Source: Malacoraja senta
Taxonomy: Eukaryota
Length of the DNA stretch: 64,000 nucleotides
Assembly (NCBI GenBank): GCA_038087875.1
Contig: CM075988.1
Span: 1,240,001 to 1,304,000, forward strand
Direction: 5' to 3'
The notes beneath the pieces were generated by a model. The model saw only the letters and a program-made list of their open reading frames with translations. It did no database searches and was not told where the DNA came from. How positions within the stretch are numbered: the first letter of the stretch is position 1; every line of letters starts with the position of its first letter. Shown here piece after piece: positions 3,578 to 60,354 of the stretch. A program made the position numbers and the translations under genes.

Positions 3578-6500
3578 TGATGGGATGGTTAATGACCCCA
3601 GAATTAACGGGAAAGGAAGCTCACAAAGGGATAGGAGAATATGGCCAAGTGTAATAGGGATCGATGTGAAAGGTGAGATGCGTAAGGAATTAAAAGTATT
3701 GTATATGAATGCGCGAAGTATAAGAAGTAAAGTAGATGAGCTTGAGGCTCAGTTAGAGGTTGGTAGATATGACATTGTGGGGATTACTGAGACGTGGCTG
3801 AAGGAGGATCGGGCCTGGGAACTTAATATTCAGGGTTATACATCCTATAGAAAGGACAGGCAGGTGGGCAGAGGAGGGGGGGGGGGTAGCTCTGCTGGTG
3901 AGGGATGGAATTCAGTCCCTTGCGAGGGAAGGCATAGGGACTGATGAGGTAGAGTCACTGTGGATTGAGTTGAGGAATTGTAAAGGCAAGAAGACACTAA
4001 TTGGTGTTATTTACAGACCCCCAAATAGTAGCCCGGATGTAGGGTGTAACTTGCAGCAGGAGTTAAAACTGGCATGTAACAAAGGTAATGCCACTGTGGT
4101 GATGGGGGATTTCAATATGCAGGTAGAGTGGGAAAATCAGGTTGGTTCAGGACCCCAAGAAAGAGAGTTTGTGGAGTGCCTCCGAGATGGATTCTTAGAG
4201 CAGCTTGTAATGGAGCCGACCAGAGAAAAGGCAATTCTGGATTTAGTGTTGTCCAATGAACCAGATATGATAAGAGAACTCGAGGTAAAGGAACCGTTTG
4301 GAGGTAGTGATCACAATATGATTAGTTTTAATCTGCAATTTGAGAAGGAGAAGGTTAAACCGGAAGTGGCAGTGATGCAGTTGAATAAAGGGGACTATGA
4401 AGGCATGAGAGGGGAGCTGGCCAAAGTAGACTGGAAAGGGATCCTAGCAGGAATGATGGTGGAACAGCAATGGCAGGTATTTCTGGGTATAATCCGGGAT
4501 ACGCAGGATCATTTCATTCCAAAAAGGAAGAAAGATTCTAAGGGGAGTAGGAGGCAACCGTGGCTGACAAGAGAAGTTAGGGATAGAATAAAACTAAAAG
4601 AAAAGATGTATAACACAGCAAAGAGTAGCCGGAAGCCCGAGGATTGGGAAACTTTCATAGGACAACAGAAGGAAACAAAACGGGCAATACGGGCTGAAAA
4701 GATGAAGTACGATGGGAAGCTGGCCAGGAATATAAAGAAGGACAGTAAAAGCTTCTTTAGATATGTTAAGGGAAAAAGAGTAGCAAAGTCAAATGTGGGT
4801 CCCTTGAAGGCAGACACGGGTGAAATTATTATGGGCAACAAGGAAATGGCAGAGAAGTTGAATAGGTACTTCGGATCTGTCTTCACTAAGGAAGACACAA
4901 ACAATCGCCCAGATGTACTGGAGGACTGAGGATCTAAGGGGGTAGTGGAACTGAAATAATTTTTCATTACACGAGAAATAGTATTGGGTAGGCTAATGGG
5001 ACTGAAGGATGATAAATTCCCTGGGCCTGACGGTCTGCATCCCAGGGTCCTCAGGGAGGTGGCTCTAGAAATAGTGGACGCATTGGTGATCATTTTCCAA
5101 TGTTCAATAGATTCAGGATCAGTTCCTGTGGATTGGAGAATAGCTAATGTTATCCCACTTTTCAAGAAAGGAGCGAGAGAGAAAACGGGGAATTACAGAC
5201 CAGTTAGCCTGACTTCGGTGGTGGGAAAGATGCTGGAATCAATTATTAAAGAGGTAATAATGGGGTATTTGGATAGAACTAAAAGGATTAGTCCAAGTCA
5301 ACATGGATTTATGAAAGGGAAATCAAGCTTGACTAATCTTCTGGAATTTTTTGAGGATCTGACAAGTAAAATGGATGAAGGGGTGCCAGTGGATGTAGTG
5401 TATCTAGACTTTCAGAAAGCCTTTGATAAGGTCCCGCATGGGAGACTGGTGACTAAAATTAGAGCACATGGTATTGGGGGTAGGGTGTTGACATGGATAG
5501 AAAATTGGTTGGCAGACCAGAAGCAAAGAGTAGGAGTGAACGGGTCCTTTTCAGAATGGCAGGCATGGCGAGTGGAGTGCCGCAAGGCTCGGTGTTGGGG
5601 CCGCAACTGTTTACCATATATATTAATGATTTGGAAGAGGGAATTAGGAGCAACACTAGCAAGTTTGCGGATGACACAAAGCTGGGTGGCAGTGTGAACT
5701 GTGAAGAGGATGTTAGGAGGTTGCAAGGTGACCTGGACAGGTTGAGTGAGTGGGCAGATGCGTGGCAGATGCAGTATAATATAGATAAATGTGAGGTTAT
5801 CCACTTTGGCGGCAAAAACAAGAGGGCAGATTATTATCTCAATGGGGTTCGGTTAGGTAAGGGGGAGGTACAGCGAGACCCTGGGTGTCCTTGTACACCG
5901 GTCACTGAAAGTTGGCGTGCAGGTACAGCAGGCAGTGAAGAAAGCTAATGGAATGTTGGCCTTCATAACAAGAGGATTTCAGTATAGGAGTAAAGAGGTT
6001 CTTCTGCAGTTGTATCGGGCTCTGGTGAGACCACATCTGGAGTATTGTGTACAGTTTTGGTCTCCTAATTTGAGGAAGGACATCCTTGTGATTGAGGCAG
6101 TGCAGCGTAGGTTCACGAGATTGATCCCTGGGATGGCGGGACTGTCATATGAGGAAAGATTGAAAAGACTAGGCTTGTATTCACTGAAATTTAGAAGGGT
6201 GAGGGGGGATCTTATAGAAACAAATAAAATTATAAAAGGACTGGACAAGCTAGATGCAGGAAAAATGTTCCCAATGTTGGGCGAGTCCAGAACCAGGGGC
6301 CACAGTCTTAGAATAAAGGGGAGGTCATTTAAGACTGAGGTGAGAAAAAACGTTTTCACCCAGAAAGTTGTGAATTTATGGAATTCCCTGCCACAGAGGG
6401 CAGTGGAGGCCAAATCACTGGATGGATTTAAGAGAGAGTTAGATAGAGCTCTCGGGGCTAGTGGAGTCAAGGGATATGGGGAGAAGGCAGGCACGGGTTA

Positions 6501-10402: not shown

Positions 10403-12282
10403 TTTCTTCAGTTTCTTTCTTGTGAATTCCTCTAATTATTTGTTGAGCAACCTTTTTTTCTTTCTTTCTTTCAACCTCTCTCCCTCTCCCTCTATGAAAT
10501 CCTAATGCTGTAAATAAAATATCAATGAACACATGCCAAGATATTTTTTCATACTTTCATTCTATATTAGTGTAATAAAATGTAGTGTATACATATGTAC
10601 ACTGATGCAGAAGTGCGAGCTTTAGACATGAATAATGTACATTGCTGCTATAGTTTAGTTTTTAATTTAACATATATTTGAGGGGGTTGGTGCAATATAG
10701 TGCTAACCCTCACTTTGTGACAAATGAGTACACTTTGTAACACTGAAGGAGCGATTTATGGACCAACCCCTTACGTGTCTCCACGGGAATCTACCTCAAA
10801 ACACCAATTTAACCTGATGGCGATCTCATGGCTGTAGGTCATGATGTGATATTTAAAATGGAAATGGTTGCTTCTGAATTTTGCATGTTATGATCTAGAA
10901 AAACATTGTGAGCTACTTTGTGGACAAATGGCAGGAAATCACAGGCTCTGACAATGGATGGACTATAAGCAGCATATGGCTGTTACTGATATTTTAGTGA
11001 CTGTGAAAATGAATCCTAAGATAGACACAAAAAGCTGGAGTAACTCAGCAGGACAGGCAGCATCTCTGGAGAGAAGGAATGGGTGACGTTTCAGGTCGAG
11101 ACCCTTCTTCAGCTTCAAATGAATCCTTCTTGGTCCAATAAGGGAAATTACTCCTGATGTATTTGCAGGAATCTGCAAGTTACTGTTTTCTATTTTATTT
11201 TACATGATGGGAACTGGAAATTAATATTTTTGATATTTTATGACTAAAAAGCAAAATACTCCTGATAGTTTGTCTAACATTCCAAGTTTTCCAAAATTAC
11301 AGTAAAACCAGCAATAATCTCCGGGCTACAGTGAATGGAGTTAAATCAGAAACGATAACTTAAAGAAGCAACTTAGCAAATAAGGTGTCAGTTGGAGTTC
11401 AAAATTGAAAAACAAATAAGATAAAGAAAATGAACTGATATCGCCATCATTGATGCCTGTACTAAAAGCCACATCTGAATATTACTATCTTTAAAAAAAA
11501 CCTAGAGACTAAATTTAATCATTTTAAAATGCCTCAGCCCCACGTTAAATGAAGATTGACAACGAAGTAATCTATTGATATCACAATTTCTAACCTATGT
11601 AGTCATATCACCCATTTAAATTATAAGTTATACCTAATACTTTAAAATACAACTTATGGTTGAAAGATGCAACAGTAATCAAATTGATCCTGAAGTTATT
11701 TCACAAAAACTGAGCCACTAACTTCTAGATCATAACAATGACAATCATTTCTAGATTATAATTCACAGAGTGCGTACATTTTTCACTGCAATCCCATTCA
11801 AAAAAGTTTGCACAATGAATTAAATTAATTGCATGGTCCAAACTTGGGAGAAATTACTTCCTCGAGAGATAACATGGTAAGTACATGGAGCTAGGAACGC
11901 TGTTGCTATGGTGCAAGCTGACTCGAATCGCGTAATCACGGCTGCAGACTAATGGGTCCCCATTAATGTGCCTTAATATAATAACATTCATGTGCGGCAC
12001 TGGCATTTCTAATGTGGTGCAGGCAAAGATACTAATCGCGAAGCCGGTTCCCAAGATGGCGCTACAAATTACCCATGACCTACTACGTCTTTTTCGCCGA
12101 GTGGACCATCTTGCTATGATCTTTGCTAATCACTGCCTGCCATTCTGAAAGGGACCCGTTAATCCCTACTCTTTGTTTCCTGTCTGCCAACCAATTTTCT
12201 ATCAGTGTCGGCACTCTACCCCCAATACCATGTGCCCTAATTTTGCCCACTAATCTCCTATTTGGGACCTTATGAAATATCA

Positions 12283-13769
12283 GTTGGCCAAGGTAGACTG
12301 GAAAGGGATCCTAGCAGGAATGACGGTGGAACAGCAATGGCAGGAATTTCTGGGCAAAATCCGGAAGACGCAGGATCATTTCATTCCAAAAAGGAAGAAA
12401 GATTCTAAGGGGAGTAGGAGGCAACCGTGGCTGACAAGAGAAGTTTGGGATAGAATAAAACTAAAAGAAAAGATGTATAACACAGCAAAGAGTAGCCGGA
12501 AGCCAGAGGTTTGGGAAACTTTCATAGGACAACAGAAGGAAACAAAATGGGCACTACGGGCTGAAAAGATGAAGTACGAAGGGAAGCTGGCCAGGAATAT
12601 AAAGGACAGTAAAAGCTTCTTTAGATATGTTAAGGGAAAAAGAGTAGCAAAGTCAAATGTGGGTCCCTTGAAGGCAGACACGGGTGAAATTATTATGGGC
12701 AACAAGGAAATGGCAGAAGAGTTGAATAGGTACTTCGGATCTGTCTTCACTAAGGAAGACACAAACAATCTCCCAGATGAACAGAGGGATCTTGGAATAA
12801 CTGTGCACAGTTCCCTGAAAGTGGAATCTCATGTAGATAGGGTGGTAAAGAAAGCTTTTGGTGTGCTGGCTTTTATAAATCAGAGCATTGAGTATAGAAG
12901 TTGGGATGTAATGTTAAAATTGTACAAGGCATTGGTGAGGCCAATTCTGGAGTATGGTGTGCAATTTTGGTCGCCTAACTATAGGAAGGATGTCAACAAA
13001 ATAGAGAGAGTACAGAGGAGATTTACTAGAATGTTGCCTGGGTTTCAGCAACTAAGTTACAGAGAAAGGTTGAACAAGTTAGGGCTTTATTCTTTGGAGC
13101 GCAGAAGGTTAAGTGGGGACTTGATAGAGGTCTTTAAAATTATGAGCGGGTTAGACAGAGTTGACGTGGATAAGCTTTTCCCACTGAGAGTAGGGAAGAT
13201 TCAAACAAGGGGACATGGGAATTAAGGGACAGATGTTTAGGGGTAACATGAGGGGGAACTTCTTTGCTCAGAGAGTGGTGGCTGTGTGGAATGAGCTTCC
13301 AGTGAAGGTGGTGGAGGCAGGTTCGTTTTTATCATTTAAAAATAAATTGGATAGTAATATGGACGGGAAAGGAATGGAGGGTTATGGTCTGAGCGCAGGT
13401 ATATGGGACTAGGGGAGAATACGTGTTCGGCACGGACTAGAAGGGTCGAGATGGCCTGTTTCCGTGCTGTAATTGTTATTATATGGTTATGTACTGGAGG
13501 GCAGAGGATCTAAGGGGGTAGAGGAACTGAAATAAATTTTCCTTTGGGGAGAAATAGTATTGGGTAGGCTAAAGGGACTGAAGGATGATAAATCTCCTGG
13601 GCCTGATGGTCTGCATCCCAGGGTCCTCAGGGAGGTGGCTCTAGAAATAGTGGACGCATTGGTGATCATTTTCCAATGTTCAATAGATTCAGGATCAATT
13701 CCTGTGGATTGGAGGATAGCTAATGTTATCCCACTTTTCAAGACAGGAGCGAGAGAGAAAACGGGGAAT
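12283..13769 (+). mobile_element. CR1 LINE, 5' part of the copy split by the hAT-type unit; itself interrupted by a different CR1 3' fragment (about 12779-13488)
   Basis: Highly similar to 4418-5193 of the first CR1 copy and ends at ...GAAAACGGGGAAT. The nested fragment encodes KKAFGVLAFI...RPILEYGVQFWSP. Confidence 0.9.
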
Positions 13770-14447
13770 CAGGGCCGGATTTAGAAGAGTTGTTCCACTT
13801 GTGAGGCCCCTCCCAATCCCCTACCCCCACGACTAGAGGAAGATGGTCCACCAGATTGACACCGATTTGCAGCCGAGCGTGGCAAATGAGATAAGGGGCT
13901 GGAAAGCCACGCTTTGTATTTATTTATTTATTGCCAGTGCTAATGTTGAGTTATTGGCTTAAAACACTATTATTCTGAAATGAAGGGCAAGGAAAATTAC
14001 TGAAGGGTTGTTTAGAGACTACAGTGCGTTGTGACAGCATATGTAAGAAAGGCCTATGACAGTGTCAAAAATATTATACACCTTGCAGGGCTCTCACTTA
14101 ATTTTTTTTCTCTGTTGTCAGCCGGGCAACCTTGGCAGCTTTTTAAGTTGCCAAATGACAGTTTAGGTGGTCATTTAAGACGGCTTGCATGACGCGTGCG
14201 ATAATGTGCTCGGTGAAGTGCGTAGTTACCAGTTGGAATTATGCTCAATGAAGCATTCACATATTATTTCTGCTTCAAATAAAGTCACAAACTAAACATA
14301 TTCACCAATCAAGACATGATATATACCACAATGACATGCAGCAAAATTATAATACAGTATCTCAACTCTTTTTACACGTTGCAATTAATGCAATTTCTAT
14401 TATTTCTTTCCACTTCCAAACAAAAATCTGGTTGGATTATTCAGCGC

Positions 14448-14900
14448 ATGATCAACCTCGGTGAGACAAAGTACAGGCTTGGCGATCACTTCGCACAACA
14501 CCTCCACTCAGTTCGCAATCACCAACCTGATCTCCCGGTGGCTCAACACTTCAACTCCCTTCCCATTCCGAATCCTACCTTTCTGCCTTGGGCCTCCCCC
14601 ATGGCCAGAGTGAGGCCCAACGCATATTGGAGGTGCAGCACCTCATATTTGCTTGGGTAGTTTACACCCCAGTGGTATGAACATTGGCTTCTCTAATTTC
14701 AGGTAGTCCTTGCTTTCTCCCTCCTTCCCCTCCCATTCCCAGCTCTCCCACAGCCTACTGCCTCCGCCTCTTCCTTTCTTTTTCGTGTCCCCCCACCGAA
14801 ATTAATCTGAAGAAGGGTCTCGACCCAAAATGTCGCCTATTTCCTTCGCTCCATAGATGCTGCCTCACCCGCTGATTTTATCCAGCATTTTTGTCTACCC
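14448..14900 (+). mobile_element. Penelope-like element 3' fragment (GIY-YIG C-terminus + terminal repeat)
   Basis: GETKYRLGDHFAQHLHSVRNHQPDLPVAQHFNS, followed by CTGAAGAAGGGTCTCGACCC at 14807. Confidence 0.85.
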
Positions 14901-17529
14901 ATTCACACAAGTTGTGTTATCCCACTTTCCTCACCCACTCCCTACACATTAGGTACAATTTTACAGAGACAAGTTAACAAACAAAGCCAATGCGTCTTTG
15001 TGATGTGGGAGGAAACCCACACGCTTGCAGGGAGAATGTGCAAATTCAACACAGACAGTGCCCGAGGACAGGATCGAACACAGATCTCTGGCGTGTGAGG
15101 CAGCAAGTCTACCAGCTGTGCCACTATATTTTGTTTTCCAACACACAAAAAATTATATGTTGATAACTTTGGTTACTAAAAAAATGAAAATATCCATTTT
15201 CAGTATTAAATCTCCAAGTGATGCTATGTTCCCCTTTACAGCTACTGTATGTTTTAATTAAGTTCAAGACTATGGGGCAGTACATTGGCCATAAAGTTGC
15301 TGCCTAAAAGTGCCAGAGACCCGGAATTGATCCTGAATATGGGTGCTGTCTATATGGAGTTTGCTCCTTTTCCTTTGATCACATGGGTTTTCTCCGGGTG
15401 CTCTTGTTTCCTTCCACATTCCAAAGGTGTGCAGGAACCTTTTTCAGACCCAACCCAAAACGTAATATTTTCCTTTTGTTCAGAGATTCTGTCTGACATG
15501 TTGAGTTACTCCAGCTTTTTGTGTCTATCTTCAGTTTAAACCAGCATCTGCAGTTCCTTCCTACACACACGATACTATACGATAGAACTTTATTAATCCC
15601 TGGAGGGAAATTGAGTGTGTGTGGGTGTATATATATACACACACACGCACACATATATATAGTTATATAAATATACACCGTTTTGTTTTCTCGTTTATAA
15701 CATTGTTTACAGAGTACTATGTTTACATATTCTGTTGTGCTGCTGCAAGTAAGGATTTCATTGTTCTAACTAGGACGTGAGAGAATAAAACACTCTTGAC
15801 TCTTGACTTACTCCGTTAAGGTGTGGGATAGAACTAGTGTACGGGTGATCTGTGGTCGGCGTGGACTCGGTGGGCAGAAGGGCCTGTTTCCACGCTGTAT
15901 CTTTAAATTAAACTAAAAACACTAAAACCAGAGGGAGTCTAAAGAAGGGTCTCTACCCGAAACGCCAATGTCTTCTATCCAGAGATGCTGGCTGCTCCAT
16001 GGAGTTCCCCCGCGCAATTAAAGCATGGAATAGTCTTCAGCCTTCCATAGTTACCCAACCAGACGCAACTAAATTCAAGGTACCTCGTTTTTCCCCAGGA
16101 TCCCTTTTTTGCTTCACTCCAAGTCAAGATTCAAGATTTATTATCATGTGTCCAGGATAGGACAATGAATTTCTTGCTTGCTGCAGCACAAAGTTCAGTG
16201 TGTTTATATACCATAAACCATATATCGTGGTCAGGAAAAGGCCAGATGTCACGTGCCAGCCCTCGTAGCTACTGACGAGGGTTCGACCATAAATGGTCTG
16301 TGTATCAGCCGACGCCACAATATATACACAATAAATAAACAGATAAAATGCAATAGGCTGTTATTATTCAGCCCTCCACCACCTCCAGTTAAAATTCCAT
16401 TTAGAATATTTATGGAGGACCAGGAAACCAGAAGCAAGAGTTACTCCAGGGAGTTACTCCAGATCCAGGGTCAGACAGTGATTCTGCGTTGGTTTTCAGC
16501 GGTCGTGGCGAGGCGGCGACCGGACAGCTATGGCGGCCAGATCTCCCACAAGTCAAAGCAAGGGAGAAAGTGCCCAGCGCCGACCAGTTGCCGTGGCAGT
16601 GCGCATGCGCAGGGCGGCCTATGATGTGCCGGCCGTGGTTGTGCGCATGTGCAGGGGGAGGATGTGCTGGTGGTAGCAGTGCGCATGTGCAAGGCGGCCT
16701 GCCGTGCCGGCGGATGAGGAACGAAGAGCAGAGCCCTTGCGGCCCGGACACGGATAGCGGGCAGAGACGGAGATTGACAGACAGAGAGAGAGAGAGAGAG
16801 ATAGAGAGGGGGGCCCGCCCAGAGTTCAACGGAGACCCCCTCGATTTCGAGGCCCTAGGCTTCAGCCTATGAAGCTTAGTGGTAAATCTGGCTCTGCGAG
16901 GCCCCCCTAGATCTCGAGGCCCTAAGCTTGTCAAGCTTATACGTAAATCCGGCCCTGCTTTTCACTCTGCCATGTGGTGCCGTAAGTGGCAGCCTCACCA
17001 ACTGCCTGTCTCGTCCCTTTCTTCTTTTCTTGGTTTTAGTCAATTTTATTTGTATGTTTTAATGTATCTTTAGTTTTTGTATTATGTGGGGGTTGGGGGT
17101 TGGGGGAAACTTGTTTCATCTCTTCCCTCGACAGAGATGTGACTTTTTCTGTATTATATCTCCGTCCGCACTGCGGCCTTAACATCGTGGAGCTGGCAGT
17201 CCCTTTGTTAGGGATTGACTTCTGGAGCTCCAACTGCAGGAGCTTCGACCGCCCCGATTGCAGGAGCCTCGATCGCCCCTTTGCGGGGGCTTCAATCGCG
17301 CTGACTGCGTATGTTTTGATCGCCCTGACTGTGGGAGAAAAGGAGGAAGGAAGGTGAAAGTTATTCGCCTTCCATCATAGTGGGGAATGTGAGGATGCCG
17401 AAAGAGAAGATGGACGTGCTGCCTGCACTGGTGGGGACTAGTAGGGAGTGTCGTGAGTGCAGTGATCTCTGTGTTTGCGGGGATATGGCGCCATGAGAAC
17501 ATCCTGGTATCTGGTGCGAGTGTGGATAG

Positions 17530-19971
17530 CTTTCTTTTTTTTTTAATTAATATTTTTATTAGAAGCAAAAACATATTATGGTACAAATATTTAATGTATA
17601 TCTATCATACATTATTAATATTATCAATTGTGGATTGATACTGCTTCTAGTTTTTTTTTTATAGATAGAAAGTAAGAAAGCAAGAGAGAAAAAACCCCAC
17701 AAATGTCAAGATTTTAAAAAAAAGAGTGGAATGATTTACTAATAATACATCATTGGAGAGGTTCGTAGGTTATAAAGTATAACTATTCATCTATTCCTAA
17801 GTTCAAGCTTCAGTTATGTTCTGTATCGTCTTGGTGAGACCACACCTGGAGTATTGCGTACAGTTTTGGTCACCAAATCTGAGGAAAGACATTCTTGCCA
17901 TAGAGGGAGTACAGAGAAGGTTCAACAGACTGATTCCTGGGATGTCAGGACTTTCATATGAAGAAAGACTGGATAGACTCGGCTTGTACTCGCTGGAATT
18001 TAGAAGACTGAGGGTTATTCTTATAGAAACTTACAAAATTCTTAAGGGGTTGGACAGGCTAGATGCAGGAAGATTGTTCCCGATGTTGGGGGAGTCCAGA
18101 ACAAGGGGTCACAGTTTAAGGATAAAGGGGAAATCTTTTAGGACTGAGATGAGAAAAACATGTTTTACACAGAGAGTGGTGAATCTCTGGAATTCTCTGC
18201 CACAGAAGGTAGTTGAGGCCAGTTCATTGGCTATATTTAAGAGGGAGTTAGATGTGGCCCTTGTGGCTAAAGGGATCAGGGGGTATGGAGAGAAGGCAGG
18301 TACAGGATACTGAGTTGGATGATCAGCCATGATCATATTGAATGGCGGTGCAGGCTCGAAGGGCCGAATGTCCTACTCCTGCACCTATTTTCTATGTTTC
18401 TATGTTCCCGTGCCGAACCGATCTACCCCTTCAAATAGTCAATGAATGGAGACCATATTCTAACAAAAAGTTATTGTTTGTCCATTAAGACAAGTTTGAT
18501 TCTTTCCAGGTGTAGGGTCTCCGACATTTCCATAATCCACATTTTAATTGTGGGGGTTATAGGGCTTTTCCAAAATTTTAATATTAATTTTTTCCCAGTT
18601 ATTATACTGTAGTCTAGGAAGTTTCTTTGGCTTGTTGTGAGTGTTAGACTTTGTTCTGATATTCCAAGTATTATTAGTTTTGTCGGGATCCAATTTAGTA
18701 TTGACAACTTCAGAAATTATTCTAAAAATATCAATCCAGACATTTTTAATATTTATGTGTTAAGTTAGCCTCTAGATGCTGACATTTATCACAGATAGGA
18801 GAGATATGTGGGAAAATTCTATTTAGCTTTGCTTTAGAATAATGTAATCTGTGTAATACTTTAAATTGTATTAAAGCATGTCTGGCATTTAACGAGCATT
18901 GATGTATATATTGTAGACTTTCGTCCCAAATATCTTTCATTATAGGTTGGCCTAATTCATTTTCCCATGTATATGATTCCATCGATGGGACCTCATTATC
19001 TAAGAGGGTGTTATAAATACAAGTTATTAATTTTTCTGTATTGGATTCAAACATTCGTCAAGGATTTCTGGTTCCCTAGTCCTATAATTTTGTGTATTGG
19101 ATTTAACATAATCTCTAAGTTGTAGATATCTGAAACAATTATTTGAGTGTAGTCCGTAGATCTGTTGTAACTCCTGGAATGAAAGAAAAGTGCCTTTCCT
19201 ATAAAGATGTCCCATCTTTTTAATTCTGTAATTTTTCCATTGTGTGAAACCTTTATCCAATATGGAAGGTTTAAATAAAGGGTTGTTTACAATGGGAAAA
19301 TAAAGTGATATATTATCCAATTTGAAAGCCTTTTTTAATTGTTTCCAGATTCGTATACCACTATGTATTATAGGGTTTTCCCTATAGGTTTTTGTTGTAC
19401 AATTTTGTGGGAGCAAACATAATCGCACCAATTTCAAAAGGCAAACAGTCTTCCTTTTCCATCCTTAGCCAATCTGGTTGCTCATCCATTTCTTCCAGCC
19501 AGAAATTCATGTTTTTAATATGGACTGCCCAAAAATAAAACAAAAAATTTGGCAAAGCTAAACCTCCATTTATCTTTGATTTACATAAATGTTTTTTGCA
19601 TATTCTATGATTCTTATAATCCCAGATGAAACTTGTAACAATGGAATCGACTTTAAAAAAAAAAATTGGGGGATATATGTCGGAATTGATTGAAATAGGT
19701 ACAGTAATTGCGGTAAAAAAATCATTTTTAGTTAATTTTTATAGCATTAACTCTACCAAACATTGAAATGGGAATTGTTTTCCAATACTGAATATTCTTA
19801 TGTAGTTTATTCTGTAAAGGTGGGAAGTTTAATTTAAATAAAAGAGTATATGTCTTAGTTACATAAATTCCTAAATATTTAAATTTTTCCTTAACTATTT
19901 TAAAAGGAAATTGTTGTAGTGTATGTAAATTCAGTTCCGTTATTGGCATGATTTTGCTTTTATTCCAATTC
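17530..19971 (-). mobile_element. L1/Tx1-type LINE, 5'-truncated, with a nested CR1 3' fragment (about 17830-18405, +)
   Basis: Minus ORFs contain FKYLGIYVT, GRVNAIK, FRYLQLRDY and QFKVLHRLHYS...CDKC. Poly-T lies near 17535. The TSD is TATCTGGTGCGAGTGTGGATAG at 17508-17529 and 19972-19993. Confidence 0.85.
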
Positions 19972-20463
19972 TATCTGGTGCGAGTGTGGATAGGTTTCTG
20001 ACTGTTCGGGCGGACAGGGACTGCAGAGAGAGTGACAGCGGTCAGAACAACTCTGGTCACATCACAGTGAATGAGCATGTGTGTGTGTGTGGCCTGGACA
20101 TTAAACTGATGGCTGTGGGTCTCCGCGTATGCTGTGTGCCCTAGGGATTCTCACACGCCGCTGTAGTGGCTGTTTATGTTTAATCTTTATGTAGTTTTGT
20201 GTCTTGTTGCTTTATTGATATGACTGTATGGTAAATCAAATTTCACTGTGACAATAAAGGACCATTGAACCATACCTCAATACACGCGATAATAATCATG
20301 ACGACACGACTCATGCCACGTCACAGCACATGTGGAGGGACCCATTCCTCGTGCAGTCACCAGAGTTATGTTTCTTGCTTCACCCACTCTACTCTCCACG
20401 AGGCTCCTTCCCTGGTCAACTCTATCTAGCTCTGAGAACTCCATGGGCCAGGTTAGTGATTGA

Positions 20464-20573
20464 CCAATTACAATTGATGAGCAATAACCTTCAGTTGGGC
20501 CTTTTGTTGGGTGTGTGATTGGATGGAGATGCAATTGACTAAACAAGCAGGGAGAGGAGTGGATGTATTTAAA
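20464..20573 (+). promoter_or_regulatory. Putative H2B-variant core promoter (CCAAT, inverted CCAAT, TATA-like)
   Basis: CCAAT at 20464-20468, ATTGG at 20518-20522 and TATTTAAA at 20566-20573, about 80 bp upstream of the ATG. Confidence 0.55.
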
Positions 20574-20650
20574 GGTGTGGGTTGGGCAGTGTGTTTGTTG
20601 TTGTTGGGGTGAGAGGTTCTTGGTTATTCACTGCTCTGGGACTGAACATC

Positions 20651-22113
<1,463 letters not shown>

Positions 22114-22138
22114 GGCTGGCACCATGCCCTGCCACCCC

Positions 22139-22144
22139 AATAAA
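22139..22144 (+). terminator. Polyadenylation signal of the H2B variant
   Basis: AATAAA 25 nt after the stop codon, followed by GT-rich sequence. No histone stem-loop is present. Confidence 0.7.
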
Positions 22145-23309
22145 GGGGAAACCTTGCCTGTGTGTACGTATGCACTATGTGTGGTGGTGGTGGTGAGGGG
22201 GGGGAAGGGAGGACATCGATGGGCACCCCCACACTGCTGCCTGACCCCCTCTGTGGGGGCAGTCATTCACCCCCCTCAATGCCCTCGGTCCAGGCATTGA
22301 GCTGAGGAAGAGTCATGGTCACATAGCAGGGCAACTGGCCCTTCGGACCAACTTGCCCAAGTTGGCACACTGGTCCAGTTCCATTTTCCCACGTTGAGTT
22401 TATTGTCATGTGTACAGTGCTATCCAGTCATCACAAAGACTATACATGATTACAATCAAGCCGTTCACAATGTACACATATAGGATAAAGAGAATAATGT
22501 TGAGTGTATGATAAAATCCGATTAAAGATAGTCTGAGGGTCTCCAATGAGGTAGATGGTAGGTCAGGACTGCTCTCTAGCTGGTGATAGGATGGTTCAAC
22601 AGCTGGGAAGAAACTGTTCCTGCATCTGGAGGAGATGAAATGTGTAGGAAGGAACTGCGGATGAGGTGTGTGTTTTCACACTTCTGTACCTCCTGCCTGA
22701 TGGGAGAGGTGGAGTGACTGACTGGTGCTTGATTATGCTGCTATCCTTGCTGAGGCAGCAATGGAAGGGAGATTGATGGTCTGGGCTACGTCCACTCCGT
22801 AATTTCTTGCGATCTTGGATGGAGCTGTTCCCAAACCATGTTGTAATGTATCCCGATAAAATACTTTCTACGGCACATCTGTAGAAGTTGGTGAGAGTTG
22901 TTGGGGTTATGCTGAACTTCCTAAGCCTTCTAAGGAAGTAGCAGTGTTGGTGTGCTTCAATATGGCTGGTGCAGGTGGTGGGTGGTCAGGGTGTAGGGGG
23001 GGTATGAGGACTGTAGTGTGGGTGGGGAGGAGCTGGGGTCACATGGTTTGAGGGGAATGGGGAAGACCCAGTCGAACAGCCACTGAAGTCACCATGTTTG
23101 GGGGGCTAGCACTAGGACCCAGCGCAGTCAAACTCGGGGGAGTTGGAGTCTGCAGCGTGGAAACAGCGCCACCGATGGTAGGGTTTGTAACAACGCCACT
23201 ATGTCAAAGGTTTTATACACCTTGGTGGAGCGGGCCGAGGCCCCCCTAGATCTCGAGGCCCTAAGCTTAAGCTTGTCTAGCTTATACGTAAATCCAGCCT
23301 GCGGGGAAT

Positions 23310-24694
23310 TACAGACCAGTTAGCCTGACTTCGGTGGTGGGAAAGATGCTGGAGTCAATTATTAAAGAGGTAATAATGGGGCATTTGGATAGCAGTAAAA
23401 GGATTAGTCCATGTCAACATGGATTTATGAAAGGGAAATCATGCTTGACTAATCTTCTGGAATTTTTTGAGGATGTGACAAGTAAAATGGATGAACGGGT
23501 GCCAGTGGATGTAGTGTATCTAGACTTTCAGAAAGCCTTTGATAAGGTCCCGCATGGGAGACTGGTGACTAAAATTAGAGCACATGGCATTGGGGGTAGG
23601 GTGTTGACATGGATAGAAAATTGGTTGGTAGACCAGAAGCAAAGAGTAGGAGTGAACGGGTCCTTTTCAGAATGGCAGGCAGTGGCGAGTGGAGTGCCGC
23701 AAGGCTTGGTGTTGAGGCCGCAACTGTTTACCATATATATTAATGATTTGGAAGAGGGAATTAGGAGCAACACTAGCAAGTTTGCAGATGACACAAAGTT
23801 GGGAGGCAGTGTGAACTGTGAAGAGGATGTTAGGAGGTTGCAGGGTGACCTGGACAGGTTGAGTGAGTGGGCAGATGCGTGGCAGATGCAGTATAATATA
23901 GATAAATGTGAGGTTATCCAATTTGGCGGCAAAAACAAGGGGGCAGATTATTATCTCAATGGGGTTAGGTTAGGTAAGGGGGGGGTGCAGCGAGACCTGG
24001 GCGTCCTTGTTGGCGTGCAGGTACAGCAGGCAGTGAAGAAAGCTAATGGAATGTTGGCCTTCATAACAAGAGGATTTCAGTATAGGAGTAAAGAGGTTCT
24101 TCTGCAGTTGTATAGGGCTCTGGTGAGACCACATCTGGAGTATTGTGTACGGTTTTGGTCTCCTAATTTGAGGAAGGACATCCTTGTGATTGAGGCAGCG
24201 CAGCGTAGGTTCACCAGATTGATCCCTGGGATGGCGGGACTGTCATATGAGGAAAGATTGAAAAGTCTAGGCTTGTATTCACTGGAGTTTAGAAGGATGA
24301 GGGAGGTTCTTATAGAAACATATAAAATTACAAAAGGACTGGACAAGCTAGATGCAGGAAAAAATTTCCCAATGTTGGGTGAATCCAGAACCAGGGGCCA
24401 CAGTCTTAGAATAAAGGGGAGGTCATTTAAGACTGAAGTGAGAAAAAAAAATTTCACCCAGAGAGTTGTGAATTTATGGAATTCCCTGCCACAGAGGGCA
24501 GTGGAGGCCAAGTCACTGGATGGATTTAAGAGAGAGTTAGATAGAGCTCTAGGGGCTAGTGGAGTCAAGGGATATGGGGAGAAGGCAGGCATGGGTTATT
24601 GATAGGGGACGATCAGCCATAATCACAATGAATGATGTTGCTGGCTCTAAGGGCCGAATGGCCTCCTCCTGCACCTATTTTCTATGTTTCTATG
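23310..24694 (+). mobile_element. CR1 LINE, 3' part of the copy split by the hAT-type unit
   Basis: Resumes at TACAGACCAGTTAGCC exactly where 13769 stops. It carries a 422-aa RT ORF (23334-24602) and a (TTTCTATG)n tail. Confidence 0.95.
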
Positions 24695-42377: not shown

Positions 42378-45300
42378 GTAGCTCTGTTCATTTCCTTTAC
42401 TTTCTGTAACTCACACAGGTTGAAGCACAAGCATCTTTATTGTCCAGGTCATTAACTACTATGCAGATCATCACACGTTCACACTGCTACTCTGACTGGT
42501 AGACAGTGGGTAGGATCTTAAGGGCCTGTCCCACGAGCATGCGACTACATGCGGTGAGCACGACCTAACGTGGTCGCTTGAGCCGTACGGCCTCGCGGGG
42601 CCGGTCCCACTTCGATCGCCGGAGCCGTATGGAGTTGTGCAGGGCTGGTCCCGACATCGCGTGGGGCTCCGAAAAACTGACACTGTCCAAAAATCCCACT
42701 CGCCAACGGCCTGTCGGCCCACAGCCACATTGAGGCCATACGCAGCGTCTTGACGCCGTACACAGCGTCTTGACGGCGTACGCCTAGCACGTGGCGTTGC
42801 CCGATGACGTCACCGCCCGGCGTGCCGTTGCGTGATGACGTCACCGCCCGACACCGTGCGACGTCCAAATTCAGTCGGCCCGCCTCCTGCCCAGCTGATT
42901 GGTGAGTATGATGTCGGGACCAGCCCCGCACAACTCCAGACGTCTCCGCGGTTGGAAGTGGGAACAGCCCCACGAGGCCGTACGCCTCAAGCCACCATGT
43001 TTGGTCGCGCTAGACGCATGCAATCGCATGCTGGTGGGACAGGCCCTTTACACTATGAATGTTATAATTAGGCGGGGTTATAATTACTAAGCATTCTAAT
43101 TGGCTAACATGCTATAGCCAATCTACATCTCTTCTATAAATGAAAAGTAGATGGTGCGTTATCACTACAATGAATACATAAATTATTAAATGCAAGATAC
43201 CATATCTAATAATATCAGCTAAACATAATCGGTTAAAGATTGATTAAACATAGTCACCATATCTAACAGACGGCTTGCTAACCCGCCCGGTCCTCGTACG
43301 GTAAGGAGCTGCCTCATCAACCTTTTCTTCCGAAAAGTTGAGGGCACATTTGGGTGAGGCCGAGGGGCTCTGGGGTGAAACCGTAGGGGAAGACCGTCGC
43401 GGGGGTACCGATGAACCGGTTACAAAAGGGGAAGGGGGAGCAGACCAACACAGGGAGTGATGGGGAGCAGCAGCAGCGGCAGCAGGTACTGGAACGGCTG
43501 GAACTGCGATCACTTTAAAGTTCAGTGGAGGGGCGTCAGGACCCTAGAGTGCCGGACATCGTTCCTTCACTGGAAGGAGGTGTTGACCACCGACATCGAC
43601 AAGGTTCGAGTGTGGAACCCCAGTTTAGTAGGTCCTTTGTCTGTCTGTAGACGGACCACTTGGCCTTGGATTAGGGGCTTAAGTGGCTTACTGGATTTGT
43701 CGTAGGCACGTTTCTGCGTGTCTCGATTGGATTGCACGCGTTTTTGAACTACAGCAGGGCTGAAAACTTTCTGCTTTGTGATCCTGTGTCACTTGCAGTG
43801 GAGGTCTTGTCCAGCAGGACATCAGTCGCTGGGCTGGAGAGCCTAGAACATTGTCTCTGGCGATATTTCTCAAGTTCAACAGTTCCAGGTAGATGTCAGA
43901 TTTAGCCAGATAGTAGCGTTCCATGAGTTGTCTAGCACTACCAACAGCACGTTCGGCAAGTCCATTGGACTGTGGGTATTCTGGGCTGCTGGTAACATGT
44001 TGAAAGTTCCACCGTTTGGCAAAGTCTCTGAACCTTTGGCTGGTGAATTGCGTCCCGTTGTCAGTCTGAAGGCGGGCTGGAATGCCATGTACGGAGAAGT
44101 GTTGTCGGAGTTTCTGGACGACTATTTCTGAGGAGATGGTTGGCAGAAAATCAATTTCGAACCAACTCGAGTACGAGTCCACTAACACGGGATAGTGCTT
44201 CCCATGCCAGTCGAAGATATCGGCGGCCACAGACGACCAAGGTAAAGAGGGTGCATGTTGGGACAGCATTGGTTGTTTTTGCTGGTGTGGTACCTGTCTG
44301 TTACAGATCGCGCATGATTCTGTTGTCTCCCAAATGTACTTTGTCATTCCAGGCCAATAGATCATTTATTTAGTGCTCTGTAGGGTGGCTTCAACGCCTG
44401 GCTGGCCACTGTGGATCGCCTCATAATATTTGTTTCGCAGAGAGGGAGGGATGACCGTCTTGTGACCCTTCACTATCACACCATCCTGTAGCACCAGTTC
44501 GTCACGGACCAAAAAGTAAGGTCGTAGTTCAGCGGGAGTGTTGGACTGCTTGTTTGGCCAGCCGCCTTTAATGATGGAGGTTAGCAGCTGGGAGATTTTA
44601 TCTGCGGCAGTGTGTTCGACGAGGCGGCGCAGGCGGTCAGTTGGAACGAAGGAAACTTTTAGAACAGAGAATTCTTCTTGTTCGAATGGGTGTTGTTCGC
44701 TGGTGGCGTGTGGAGCTCGAGATAGAGTGTCTGCGATGTGCATGTCTTTACCATTTTAGTAGACGATGCGAAAATCAAAGCATTGTAGCTGCATCATCAT
44801 GCGTGGGCTGCATGAATAGGCTTGCTCAGGATGGTGACCAACGGCTCGTGATCAGTTTCTACCGTGAAAGTTTTGCCGAAAGTAAAGTCTTTAAATTTGG
44901 ATCAGGTAAAAACCACGGCAAGCAGTTCTTTCTCTATCCGGGCATAGCGCTGTTCGGTGTCCGTCAGGGTTCGTGAAGCGTAGGATACCGGCATAACATC
45001 GCCGTTGAAAGAGGTCTGCAGGCATGCTGCACCTAGTCCATACTGGGATTCATCCCAGGTAATTGTGACTGGCAGGTCGATATTGAAGGTGGACAGAGTA
45101 GGAGCACTGGCGAGCTGTAGCTTTAACGTTTCGAAAGCTCGCTGGTGGTTTGGGTACCAGGACCAGGTGTTGTCCTTGTGGGTTAGTTGATGCAGGGGGG
45201 CTGAGATTGGGGATACATTTTCCCAGGTAGTTGACCGTGCCTAGAAATCGTTGCAGGCTGGGGACGTCAGTTGGTACCGGCAGCTCGTTGATTGCTGCAG

Positions 45301-57672: not shown

Positions 57673-57739
<67 letters not shown>

Positions 57740-60297: not shown

Positions 60298-60354
60298 CAT
60301 ACGCTGAATAATCCAACCACATGTTTGTTTGGAAGTGGAAAGAAATAATAGAAA

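What the first reader, a model, noticed from the sequence alone, without database searches (positions are those of the whole stretch)
13762..23309. A hAT-type DNA transposon unit that carries a complete, intact histone H2B-variant gene
Seen: a well-preserved CR1 ORF2 is cut at AAAA-CGGGGAAT-TACAGACC (uninterrupted site at 5182-5201). The 8-mer CGGGGAAT is duplicated on both sides of a 9532-bp insert bounded by CAGGGCCGGATTTA and TAAATCCAGCCTG. The insert contains the promoter, both exons, the intron and the poly(A) signal of an undisrupted H2B variant, and no recognisable transposase. Established: short CAG-starting TIRs with 8-bp TSDs are hAT hallmarks, and gene capture by non-autonomous DNA transposons (Pack-type elements) is well known in plants but usually involves gene fragments. 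Inference: the whole gene was moved or duplicated by cut-and-paste transposition, recently enough that the target CR1 is still nearly intact. This would be a 'Pack-hAT' route for relocating or amplifying a histone variant in a vertebrate.
Basis: partly seen in the sequence, partly recalled or inferred. Interest (0 to 1): 0.92.

Follow-up and report, generated by a model that had tools for sequence, protein, structure and literature searches.

The report
Histone H2B.K gene inside hAT composite
A 9.5-kb block bounded by hAT transposon ends sits inside a LINE element of what appears to be a skate genome, and it carries the assembly's only intact copy of an intron-containing H2B.K-type histone gene, a layout that matches the two-element "composite insertions" known from maize Ac/Ds.

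Summary
A CR1 ORF2 is split at 13769/23302 by a 9,532-bp insert. The insert is flanked by the 8-bp duplication CGGGGAAT and ends in CAGGGCCGGATTTA and TAAATCCAGCCTG.

The insert is not a simple Pack-type element. It has three parts:
- 13770-16957 is a complete 3.2-kb copy of a high-copy non-autonomous hAT element, with a perfect 14-bp TIR of its own.
- 16958-22975 is 6 kb of host DNA that starts exactly at that element's inner TIR and holds a whole H2B.K-type gene (promoter, two exons, intron, AATAAA).
- 22976-23301 is a 326-bp broken-off right end of a related, transposase-derived hAT subfamily, joined to the host DNA with almost no homology.

Relatives with the same ends make 8-bp duplications. 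One carries an ORF with the hAT dimerisation domain above Pfam's cut-off.

The assembly has two other copies of the gene, without hAT ends, and both are degenerate. The window copy is the only intact one.

The anatomy best fits a two-element (alternative) hAT transposition, either a composite insertion or a macrotransposon. Gap-repair capture in situ is the main rival.

No read-level, RNA or cross-species check was possible. The block is single-copy and no donor locus was found.

The parts
13489..13769 (+). Left arm of the target CR1 (5'-truncated ORF2, ends ...FKTGAREKTGN)
   Evidence: ORF 13536-13784. One search aligns it to 4913-5193 of the intact sister copy (94.3%).
13762..13769 (.). Left copy of the 8-bp target-site duplication CGGGGAAT
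13770..16957 (+). Complete non-autonomous hAT element ('hAT-A', 3,188 bp). Left TIR is 13770-13783 and right TIR is 16944-16957, a perfect 14-bp inverted repeat. Two tandem 61-bp right-end units lie at 16836-16896 and 16897-16957. The interior is a mosaic that includes a Penelope-like (GIY-YIG) derived stretch at 14449-14901.
   Evidence: (I11); 1,533 candidates, 40 scored, all 91-100% identical; 19 of 19 other loci end in the same terminus next to unrelated flanks; 16560-16957 found full length in 39 other scored copies; the PLE-like part.
16958..22975 (+). 6,018 bp of host DNA carried between the two hAT pieces. It is homologous to C3936:7268-10741 and, from 20448 on, to C1:357.73 Mb.
   Evidence: The homology starts exactly at 16958 and stops at 22975, while the two other copies stay alike for about 1.09 kb further.
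16958..16965 (.). CTTTTCAC, the likely right-hand TSD copy of hAT-A at its former (donor) site (inference)
   Evidence: The window and C3936 alone share CTTTTCACTCTG to the left of the natural 5' end of the next repeat. Homology ends at the TIR.
17536..19972 (-). Later L1-type retro-insertion (T-run at its left edge, L1-like ORF2 remains on the minus strand plus a CR1 3' piece). It is flanked by a 27-bp duplication at 17509-17535 and 19973-19999 and is absent from C3936.
20464..20573 (+). Promoter elements of the H2B gene: CCAAT at 20464-20468 and TATTTAAA at 20566-20573
   Evidence: The region is 92-93% conserved in both paralogs.
20651..20770 (+). H2B.K-type gene, exon 1 (40 codons, [11 protein letters not shown]...KVLKQ)
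20771..21876 (+). Phase-0 intron (GT...AG). It contains a 130-bp SINE at 20787-20916 with a 14-bp TSD at 20773-20786 and 20917-20930.
   Evidence: the SINE is 99-100% identical to many genome copies and is absent from both paralogs.
21877..22113 (+). H2B.K-type gene, exon 2 (78 codons plus TAG; histone fold)
   Evidence: PF00125, E=1.1e-13; 91-95% identical to 117-119-aa 'H2B type 2-K1 / H2B.L4-like' proteins.
22139..22144 (+). AATAAA poly(A) signal. No histone 3' stem-loop was found.
   Evidence: no Rfam histone stem-loop match at E<=1 in 13000-24500.
22417..22975 (-). Old LINE 3' fragment shared by all three gene copies. The host/hAT-B junction lies inside it.
   Evidence: ORF 22596-22985 hits PF09004, a frequent LINE-tail match..
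22976..23301 (+). Truncated right end (326 bp) of a second, transposase-derived hAT subfamily ('hAT-B'). Its decayed TIR is at 23289-23301.
   Evidence: 16 other full-length matches at 87-95%; all 15 aligned copies continue upstream with shared internal sequence that the window lacks; that interior encodes hAT transposase remains.
23302..23309 (.). Right copy of the TSD CGGGGAAT
23302..24602 (+). Right arm of the target CR1 (open 436-codon ORF2 remainder)
   Evidence: ORF 23292-24602; 96.8% to 5186-5880; 94-96% to the closest genome copies.

Best explanation
A single hAT integration event placed a two-element composite into a CR1.

Shown:
- The unit's left terminus is the left end of a complete non-autonomous hAT element (13770-16957).
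- Its right terminus is the right end of a second, truncated hAT element (22976-23301).
- One 8-bp TSD brackets both termini.
- The 6 kb in between is host DNA that begins exactly at the inner TIR of the complete element.
- That DNA contains an entire, intact H2B.K-type gene.

Inferred: transposase paired the ends of two neighbouring elements at a donor locus, where hAT-A sat just upstream of an H2B.K copy (alternative transposition).

The anatomy best matches the maize Ac/fAc 'composite insertion'. In that model, reversed ends insert into an unreplicated site. The element and its flank are re-replicated, and the forks abort. The broken ends are then joined with little or no homology. That single event would explain the truncated second element and the GG-only junction at 22975/22976, and it would copy the gene. 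The same structure could instead have formed earlier and moved here as a macrotransposon by cut-and-paste, which would relocate the gene.

In either case the carried copy kept its promoter, splice sites and poly(A) signal. It is the only intact H2B.K-type gene in this assembly.
For: - TSD and contiguous CR1.
- Complete inner element with a perfect 14-bp TIR. It belongs to a family of at least 1,500 candidates whose copies all end at the same terminus next to unrelated flanks (19 of 19 loci). Its right end, including 16957, is canonical (39 other scored copies).
- hAT identity: 2 of 2 short relatives that hold both ends have perfect 8-bp TSDs. L068 carries the same terminus plus an ORF hitting PF05699 at 26.5 bits (cut-off 21.4). 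The Atlas's nearest clusters are PF05699 at 0.95. There are 674 candidate transposase-remnant loci.
- Host segment: homology to C3936 starts exactly at 16958, 12 bp outside the next repeat's natural end. It ends at 22975, whereas C3936 and C1 continue alike for about 1.09 kb. The window copy is therefore the derived, clipped one.
- Truncated second element: all 15 aligned relatives continue upstream with conserved sequence that the window lacks.
- The left end is hAT-A type from about nucleotide 20 on and the right end is hAT-B type. That is natural for two elements and awkward for one resident element.
- Precedent, read in named sections of PMC4270019: composite insertions consist of Ac plus its flank joined by 0-9 bp of microhomology to fAc plus its flank. 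They are bounded by 8-bp TSDs, and one case has a truncated Ds. Macrotransposon excision is described in passages of PMC9910405.
- Gene integrity: the 118-aa ORF aligns end to end with elasmobranch, bird, amphibian and coelacanth 117-119-aa proteins. Window-lineage CDS changes are 7 synonymous against 3 non-synonymous nucleotides.
Against: - No donor locus was found. The hAT-A|CTTTTCAC junction occurs once in the assembly, plus one unrelated 3-mismatch hit. The maize model predicts that the donor, and often a linked duplication, persists.
- Neither paralog (C3936, C1) has hAT ends within the fetched flanks. C3936 shows no excision footprint at the equivalent site.
- The block is single-copy, so its mobility as a unit is inferred from one TSD only.
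- The internal junction shares just 2 bp (10 of 14 loosely), which fits any end-joining origin.
- hAT-A and hAT-B share about 85 bp at the left end and about 66 bp at the right end. A one-element gap-repair history is therefore not excluded.
- No sequencing reads could be laid on the junctions, so the assembly is unverified here.
- Expression is untested.
Confidence: 0.55

Rival explanations
1. Abortive gap repair (Pack-type capture) in situ. An ordinary single hAT element first inserted into the CR1 and made the TSD. After it was excised or broken, repair synthesis from the left end switched to an ectopic hAT-A copy lying upstream of an H2B.K paralog. Synthesis ran off that copy's right end through 6 kb of flank. 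It was then end-joined to the 326 bp already resynthesised from the right end. In this reading the gene was copied.
For: - The structure (left end, foreign DNA, low-homology junction, short right end) is also what template switching gives.
- The two subfamilies share about 85 bp at the left end and about 66 bp at the right end, which would allow re-invasion.
- The left subterminal region has an odd 13-bp deletion that could be a scar.
- hAT-A itself is a mosaic of captured repeats, so the family has a history of acquiring DNA.
Against: - It needs a resident element that is A-type from about nucleotide 20 on the left yet B-type on the right. No such chimera was seen among the loci examined.
- It needs more than 9 kb of ectopic synthesis through a complete element end.
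- The donor should persist, but its junction is absent from the assembly.
Confidence: 0.22
2. Assembly artefact. The contig was mis-joined through near-identical hAT copies, so the H2B.K segment does not really lie between these CR1 halves.
For: - The region is almost wholly repeats.
- hAT-A has thousands of copies at 91-97% identity.
Against: - Every junction is biologically exact: TIR ends, an 8-bp TSD restoring one CR1 reading frame, and host homology starting at the first base after a TIR.
- A mis-join inside a repeat would not create the unique 22975/22976 junction between a LINE fragment and an internal point of hAT-B.
Confidence: 0.08
3. Local rearrangement. Ectopic recombination or gene conversion between two similar CR1 and hAT insertions brought the gene between the CR1 arms, with no transposition of the gene itself.
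For: CR1 and hAT copies are abundant nearby. These include a second inverted hAT-A copy at 56501-60354 and sister CR1s at 4.9-5.9 kb and 50.6-51.6 kb.
Against: - Recombination between different insertions would pair unlike flanks. Here both arms belong to one CR1 with one matching TSD.
- The host segment is bounded by hAT termini, not by CR1 or other long homologies.
Confidence: 0.05

Closest known systems
Ac/fAc composite insertions made by reversed-ends alternative transposition with re-replication in maize (Zhang et al. 2014, PMC4270019; sections 6, 8, 9 and 10 read)
   Same: - hAT superfamily.
- The unit is bounded by the termini of two different elements, one complete and one fractured.
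- A single 8-bp TSD.
- Host DNA is contiguous with the inner end of the complete element.
- The internal junction has 0-9 bp of microhomology.
- Size is about 10-23 kb.
- There is a precedent for a truncated element inside the unit (bz1-m4-D6856).
   Different: - This one is in a vertebrate (cartilaginous-fish-like) genome.
- It was found as a fixed or assembled natural product, not a pedigree-tracked allele.
- No donor, tandem duplication or reciprocal deletion was identified.
- The fractured side was copied for only 326 bp.
- It carries a whole intact gene with its promoter, not enhancer or exon pieces.
Ac/Ds macrotransposons (passages of PMC9910405 read; Huang & Dooner 2008 cited there, not read)
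   Same: Two hAT ends in direct orientation mobilise everything between them, with an 8-bp TSD. The size range (10-28 kb) covers this case.
   Different: Excision or re-insertion is shown genetically in maize. Here a single insertion is all the evidence, and the second end is a 326-bp stump whose origin would need an earlier event.
hAT capture and amplification of histone H3 in Dothideomycete fungi (Dhillon et al. 2019, PMC6710886; abstract and outline read)
   Same: A hAT element carrying a core-histone-family gene.
   Different: - In the fungi, the coding sequence was transduplicated into one element, amplified to hundreds of copies and inactivated by RIP, while the original stayed intact elsewhere.
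- Here the block is single-copy, includes the intron and regulatory DNA, and the carried copy is the only intact one.
Pack-MULE-type transduplication in plants (PMC5861414, seen in a search listing only)
   Same: Non-autonomous TIR elements containing host gene sequence.
   Different: Pack elements usually hold gene fragments inside one element and occur in many copies. This unit contains a complete second set of element ends and a complete gene.
Vertebrate H2B.K (Raman et al. 2022, PMC8857922; passages read)
   Same: - An intron-containing H2B variant with a histone fold close to canonical H2B and a divergent short N-terminal tail.
- The best-named database relatives are 'H2B type 2-K1' proteins of 117-119 aa.
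   Different: - The paper traces H2B.K to bony vertebrates in shared synteny, and reports intronless retrocopies as its duplicates.
- Here the gene is in a cartilaginous-fish-like genome. Its duplicates keep the intron (DNA-level duplication), and one copy lies inside a hAT composite.
- Orthology by synteny or phylogeny was not tested.

Membership tests
hAT superfamily DNA transposon | 8-bp target-site duplication | tested here: met
   The composite has CGGGGAAT on both sides. Two of 2 relatives that hold both ends in the fetched loci (L065, 1,214 bp; L066, 1,223 bp) have perfect 8-bp TSDs.
hAT superfamily DNA transposon | Short terminal inverted repeats beginning CAG (the YARNG-type terminus is recalled, not from a call) | tested here: met
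   There is a 14-bp perfect TIR between 13770-13783 and 16944-16957. The same terminus is present in 19 of 19 other left-end loci and at the right end of 15 of 15 aligned hAT-B copies (13 intact, 2 with decayed final bases).
hAT superfamily DNA transposon | Transposase with the hAT C-terminal dimerisation domain in elements bearing these termini | tested here: met
   L068 has the terminus at 346 and an ORF at 1568-2440 that hits PF05699 (26.5 bits, cut-off 21.4, E=5.4e-6). A second copy, L049, scored below the cut-off (19.6 bits) because its ORF is cut by a stop. The Atlas's nearest clusters are PF05699. The window's own unit has no such ORF.
hAT superfamily DNA transposon | An intact autonomous copy able to supply transposase | tested here: inconclusive
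   674 candidate loci, 135 scored. The longest open frames around the match are 587 and 570 aa, each with one stop inside the match. The N-terminal half of the copies examined is replaced by unrelated sequence.
Composite insertion / macrotransposon from alternative hAT transposition | Outer termini come from two separate elements and are bracketed by one TSD | tested here: met
   The left end is hAT-A type and the right end is hAT-B type. There is one TSD.
Composite insertion / macrotransposon from alternative hAT transposition | Carried host DNA is contiguous with the inner end of a complete element | tested here: met
   Homology to paralog C3936 starts at the first base after the TIR (16958). 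That point is 12 bp outside the next repeat's own boundary.
Composite insertion / macrotransposon from alternative hAT transposition | Internal junction made by end joining (little or no homology) | tested here: met
   At 22975/22976 a LINE fragment of the host segment abuts an internal point of hAT-B. Two bp (GG) are shared, or 10 of 14 loosely.
Composite insertion / macrotransposon from alternative hAT transposition | Donor locus with the two elements close together, and/or a linked duplication or deletion, or an excision footprint | tested here: not met
   The junction pattern is unique to the window. There are no hAT termini in the fetched flanks of C3936 or C1 and no footprint in C3936. 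The donor may have been lost or left unassembled.
Pack-type (transduplicating) non-autonomous element | Host sequence replaces the interior of a single element | tested here: not met
   A complete element with both of its own TIRs lies inside the unit, and a second truncated end closes it.
Pack-type (transduplicating) non-autonomous element | The gene-bearing element is itself amplified | tested here: not met
   Only three loci carry the variant's promoter and exon 1 (7 candidates, all scored). Only the window has hAT ends.
H2B.K histone variant | H2B histone fold close to canonical H2B, with a short divergent N-terminal tail | tested here: met
   PF00125, E=1.1e-13. The protein aligns end to end with 117-119-aa proteins named 'H2B type 2-K1', 'late histone H2B.L4' and the like from skate, rays, sharks, birds, frogs, caecilians, coelacanth and arowana.
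H2B.K histone variant | Intron at the conserved position in the histone-fold region | tested here: inconclusive
   A phase-0 intron lies between Q40 and V41. The paper says all H2B.K genes have an intron, but the passages read do not give its position.
H2B.K histone variant | Polyadenylated, replication-independent type of gene | tested here: met
   AATAAA lies 26 nt after the stop. There is no histone stem-loop match at E<=1. The canonical H2B genes of this genome are intronless and only 78-82% identical.
H2B.K histone variant | Shared synteny or phylogenetic placement with H2B.K | not testable with these tools
   No eukaryotic relatives' genomes are held. No host genes were recognised in the 64-kb window.

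The most novel reading that the evidence does not exclude
The species' only functional H2B.K gene is now cargo of a hAT composite. H2B.K is a germline or early-embryo histone variant otherwise kept in conserved synteny across bony vertebrates. In this reading, hAT alternative transposition with re-replication both produced the H2B.K copies of this lineage and moved the surviving functional copy, with its own promoter, into a TE-rich region, while the ancestral-type copies decayed. That would be a natural vertebrate case of whole-gene duplication and relocation by cut-and-paste transposon machinery.
Probability: 0.3. Interest if true: 0.78.

Novelty: new variant of a known kind. Interest (0 to 1): 0.62.

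Why it matters
Alternative transposition of paired hAT ends is known almost entirely from maize genetics as a way to duplicate and move multi-kilobase host segments. My searches turned up no vertebrate example of a whole, intact, promoter-bearing gene carried this way.

If the structure is real, DNA transposons that were recently active in cartilaginous fishes can relocate complete genes, not just fragments. That gives a DNA-level route for the turnover of histone-variant genes alongside the retroposition route described for mammalian H2B.K.

It also gives a concrete, testable case of a functional gene leaving its ancestral neighbourhood, because the carried copy is the only intact one of three.

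As a side result, an H2B.K-type intron-bearing gene in elasmobranchs suggests the variant may be older than the 'bony vertebrate' origin given in the literature.

Tried and rejected
- **RNA.** The look-up of sequencing runs listed no RNA holder. Two runs of one organism held 0.55 and 0.50 of the sampled words. None of this was laid, so it is not used as evidence.
- **Donor locus.** The junction pattern search found only the window itself, plus one 3-mismatch site that looks like another element with a chance-similar flank.
- **Paralogs as donors.** Neither C3936 nor C1 has hAT termini in the fetched flanks, and there is no footprint at the C3936 equivalent site. Pairwise K2P distances among the three copies are 0.04-0.065 and nearly equal. 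Lineage-specific non-coding rates are 2.4-3.1%. No copy can therefore be named parent of another. I first read the lower BLAST identities (87-93%, gaps counted) as showing a much older split and withdrew that.
- **Synteny.** An ORF and Pfam scan of the whole window found only LINE, LTR-retroelement and Penelope-like domains (87 of the 160 ORFs of 95 aa or more were scanned; the 73 left out were mostly overlapping-frame or already-examined ORFs). No host gene could anchor synteny.
- **C15:825750.** This hit is an intronless canonical H2B, not a fourth paralog.
- **Other Pfam scans.** The hAT-A interior ORFs gave nothing. Rfam gave only sub-threshold miRNA-like hits in a TG/CA-rich palindrome.
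- **Earlier notes of this scan.** Three look-ups (place, sequence, words) returned nothing.
- **Genome allowance.** Right ends and TSDs of full-length hAT-A copies could therefore not be collected. The TSD statistic rests on 2 short relatives plus the window.

Full report
**1. The observation**

A CR1 ORF2 is interrupted after ...AAAACGGGGAAT at 13769 and resumes with CGGGGAATTACAGACC at 23302. Aligned to the uninterrupted sister CR1 in the same window, the left arm 13489-13769 covers 4913-5193. The right arm 23302-23997 covers 5186-5880. The two arms overlap by exactly 8 bp on the intact copy, so this is a genuine 8-bp target-site duplication in one CR1.

The insert (13770-23301, 9,532 bp) starts with CAGGGCCGGATTTA and ends with TAAATCCAGCCTG. 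These pair at 12 of 14 positions.

**2. What the insert is made of**

*(a) 13770-16957: a complete non-autonomous hAT element ('hAT-A').*
- The repeat search found a perfect inverted partner of the left TIR inside the insert, at 16944-16957 (pair I11).
- Its first 300 bp have 1,533 candidate matches in the 1.94-Gb assembly. All 40 scored were 91-100% identical.
- In all 19 other loci fetched, the shared sequence stops at the same CAGGGCCGGATTT-type terminus next to unrelated flanks.
- The last 398 bp, up to 16957, are found full length in 39 other scored copies.
- So 13770-16957 is a complete 3,188-bp member of a high-copy TIR family.
- It carries a private 13-bp deletion just inside the left TIR.
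- Its interior is a mosaic that includes a Penelope-like stretch. Region 14449-14901 resembles 53084-53540, which lies within an ORF with a GIY-YIG hit.
- A second, inverted copy lies at 56501-60354.

*(b) 22976-23301: the broken-off right end of a related subfamily ('hAT-B').*
- Sixteen other places match it over its full length at 87-95%.
- All 15 copies aligned continue upstream with a conserved internal sequence that the window lacks. The window diverges at about 22976.
- That interior encodes hAT transposase remains. L049 has an ORF ending in the ...TNCSGERSFSRLKRIKN motif region. It scores PF05699 at 19.6 bits, below the cut-off because a stop cuts the domain.
- The Atlas's nearest clusters carry PF05699 at a score of 0.95.
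- A longer copy, L068, has the same terminus at position 346 and an ORF at 1568-2440 that passes Pfam's cut-off (26.5 against 21.4 bits, E=5.4e-6).
- The genome holds 674 candidate loci for this ORF. The longest open frames are 570-587 aa and most carry stops.
- Two short relatives that hold both termini (1,214 and 1,223 bp) have perfect 8-bp TSDs.
- These short relatives share about 85 bp of left end and about 66 bp of right end with hAT-A.
- On TSD length, TIRs and transposase domain, the family is hAT.

*(c) 16958-22975: host DNA.*
- It is collinear with an unplaced contig, C3936:7268-10741. From 20448 on it is also collinear with C1:357.73 Mb, minus strand.
- Two later insertions are private to the window. 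One is an L1-type retro-insertion at 17536-19972 with a 27-bp TSD. The other is a 130-bp SINE at 20787-20916 with a 14-bp TSD.
- Homology to C3936 begins at the first base after the hAT-A TIR. The next repeat's natural 5' end lies about 12 bp further right. Only the window and C3936 share the intervening CTTTTCACTCTG. I read CTTTTCAC as the TSD copy that hAT-A brought from its former site; this is an inference.
- On the right, the window's homology stops at 22975, inside an old LINE fragment. C3936 and C1 remain alike for another 1.09 kb or so.
- The window copy is therefore the clipped, derived version, bounded on both sides by hAT sequence.
- The 22975/22976 junction shares only GG (10 of 14 loosely) with the hAT-B consensus.

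**3. The gene**

- Exon 1 (20651-20770) and exon 2 (21877-22113) are separated by a GT..AG phase-0 intron. Together they give a 118-aa H2B.
- CCAAT and TATTTAAA lie upstream. AATAAA lies 26 nt after the stop. No histone 3' stem-loop was found at E<=1.
- Exon 2 hits PF00125.
- The protein aligns end to end with 117-119-aa proteins. Their sources name them 'histone H2B type 2-K1', 'late histone H2B.L4' and similar, from a skate, rays, sharks, birds, amphibians, coelacanth and arowana.
- Raman et al. 2022 (PMC8857922, passages read) describe H2B.K as an intron-bearing, ovary- and embryo-expressed variant. They trace it to bony vertebrates in conserved synteny.
- I therefore call this an H2B.K-type gene. 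Orthology by synteny, tree or intron position was not tested.
- Only three loci in the assembly carry its promoter and exon 1 (7 candidates, all scored). The other H2B hits are intronless canonical genes at 78-82%.
- The C3936 copy keeps an open frame but has four in-frame indels and five lineage-specific replacements in conserved histone-fold positions.
- The C1 copy has an insertion of roughly 85-95 bp in exon 2 that brings a premature stop.
- The window copy has 7 synonymous and 3 non-synonymous lineage-specific nucleotide changes.
- The numbers are small, but they fit purifying selection on the window copy alone. It is the only intact copy.

**4. Timing**

- Gap-free distances among the three copies are nearly equal (K2P 0.04-0.065). 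Lineage-specific non-coding change is 2.4-3.1%.
- The target CR1 is 94-96% identical to its closest relatives.
- The insertion must be younger than the CR1, so it falls in the same broad age range as the split of the gene copies.
- I cannot say whether the event that made this block also made the gene copy.
- The SINE in the intron is 99-100% identical to many copies and is much younger.

**5. Mechanism**

One TSD around two unlike termini means one integration that used ends from two elements, or later internal remodelling of one resident element.

The layout is a complete element, then its contiguous flank, then a junction with almost no homology, then a truncated second element, all inside an 8-bp TSD. 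This is the published anatomy of maize composite insertions (PMC4270019, sections 6, 8, 9 and 10). In that model:
- Reversed Ac/fAc ends transpose into an unreplicated site.
- The elements and their flanks are re-replicated, and the forks abort.
- The ends are joined by NHEJ or MMEJ with 0-9 bp of homology.
- One reported case includes a truncated Ds.

A structure of this kind can also move afterwards as a macrotransposon (PMC9910405, passages).

I put 0.55 on a two-element alternative-transposition origin (composite insertion formed here, or macrotransposition).

The main rival (0.22) is abortive gap repair with template switching in a resident element. It is possible because the two subfamilies share their terminal 66-85 bp. 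It requires a resident element that is A-type from about nucleotide 20 on the left and B-type on the right, which I did not see among the loci examined.

Misassembly (0.08) and recombination between separate CR1 and hAT insertions (0.05) fit the exact junctions poorly.

**6. Weaknesses**

- No donor locus exists in the assembly, although the maize model predicts one.
- The block is single-copy.
Neither the assembly nor expression is verified.
- No related genome or syntenic marker was available.

**7. Novelty**

- hAT capture of a histone gene is known in fungi. There, H3 was amplified and then inactivated (PMC6710886, abstract).
- Two-element hAT transposition is well documented in maize.
- Four literature searches surfaced no vertebrate case of a complete gene carried this way. 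That covers the held library only.
- I rate it a new variant of a known kind, of moderate-to-high interest, pending read-level and comparative confirmation.

Noticed in passing
window 56501-60354 (minus orientation): A second copy of the same hAT-A family, inverted relative to the first. It has a variant single-unit right end (CAGAGCCGGATTTA at 56501) and a CR1 piece inserted at about 58050-58608. Its other end was not found within the window.
   Followed up: partly
window 17536-19972, with repeats at 17509-17535 and 19973-19999: A 2.4-kb L1-type retro-insertion on the minus strand (T-run at the left edge, L1-like ORF2 remains plus a CR1 3' piece). It is flanked by a 27-bp duplication (26 of 27 identical) and is absent from paralog C3936.
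   Followed up: partly
window 20787-20916: A 130-bp SINE sits 16 nt into the H2B.K intron, with a 14-bp TSD (AACAAGGTAACATT). It is 99-100% identical to dozens of genome copies, so the SINE family looks very recently active. Its closeness to the splice donor could matter for splicing.
   Followed up: partly
window 14449-14901 versus 53084-53540 and 59843-60354: The abundant non-autonomous hAT-A element carries a Penelope-like (GIY-YIG region) fragment and SINE-like pieces in its interior. The family had therefore already picked up foreign repeats before it amplified.
   Followed up: partly
window 20651-22113; database proteins: H2B.K-type 118-119-aa proteins are annotated in skates, rays and sharks. 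The variant is therefore probably older than the 'bony vertebrate' origin stated in PMC8857922. That paper itself says its estimate may be too young.
   Followed up: no
L044 (C1:357730001-357740000), about 10900-11090, downstream of the C1 paralog: An insert of roughly 200 bp that looks like a small-subunit rRNA fragment interrupts the sequence that C1 shares with C3936. The rRNA resemblance is recalled from memory, not tested.
   Followed up: no
L008 and L014 (C4:52.576 Mb and 52.594 Mb); L056 and L057 (C1:196.318 and 196.354 Mb): These pairs of hAT copies have identical flanks 17-36 kb apart, which points to local segmental duplications that include the elements.
   Followed up: no
window 43691-46639 (minus strand): Remains of an LTR retrotransposon: integrase, RNase H, RT and a zinc knuckle. 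The whole 64-kb window showed only transposon-derived domains and no host gene other than the H2B.
   Followed up: no
window 15612-15658: A TG/CA-rich palindrome inside hAT-A gives sub-threshold miRNA-family hits (31.8 bits against a gathering score of 90). This is almost certainly chance.
   Followed up: no
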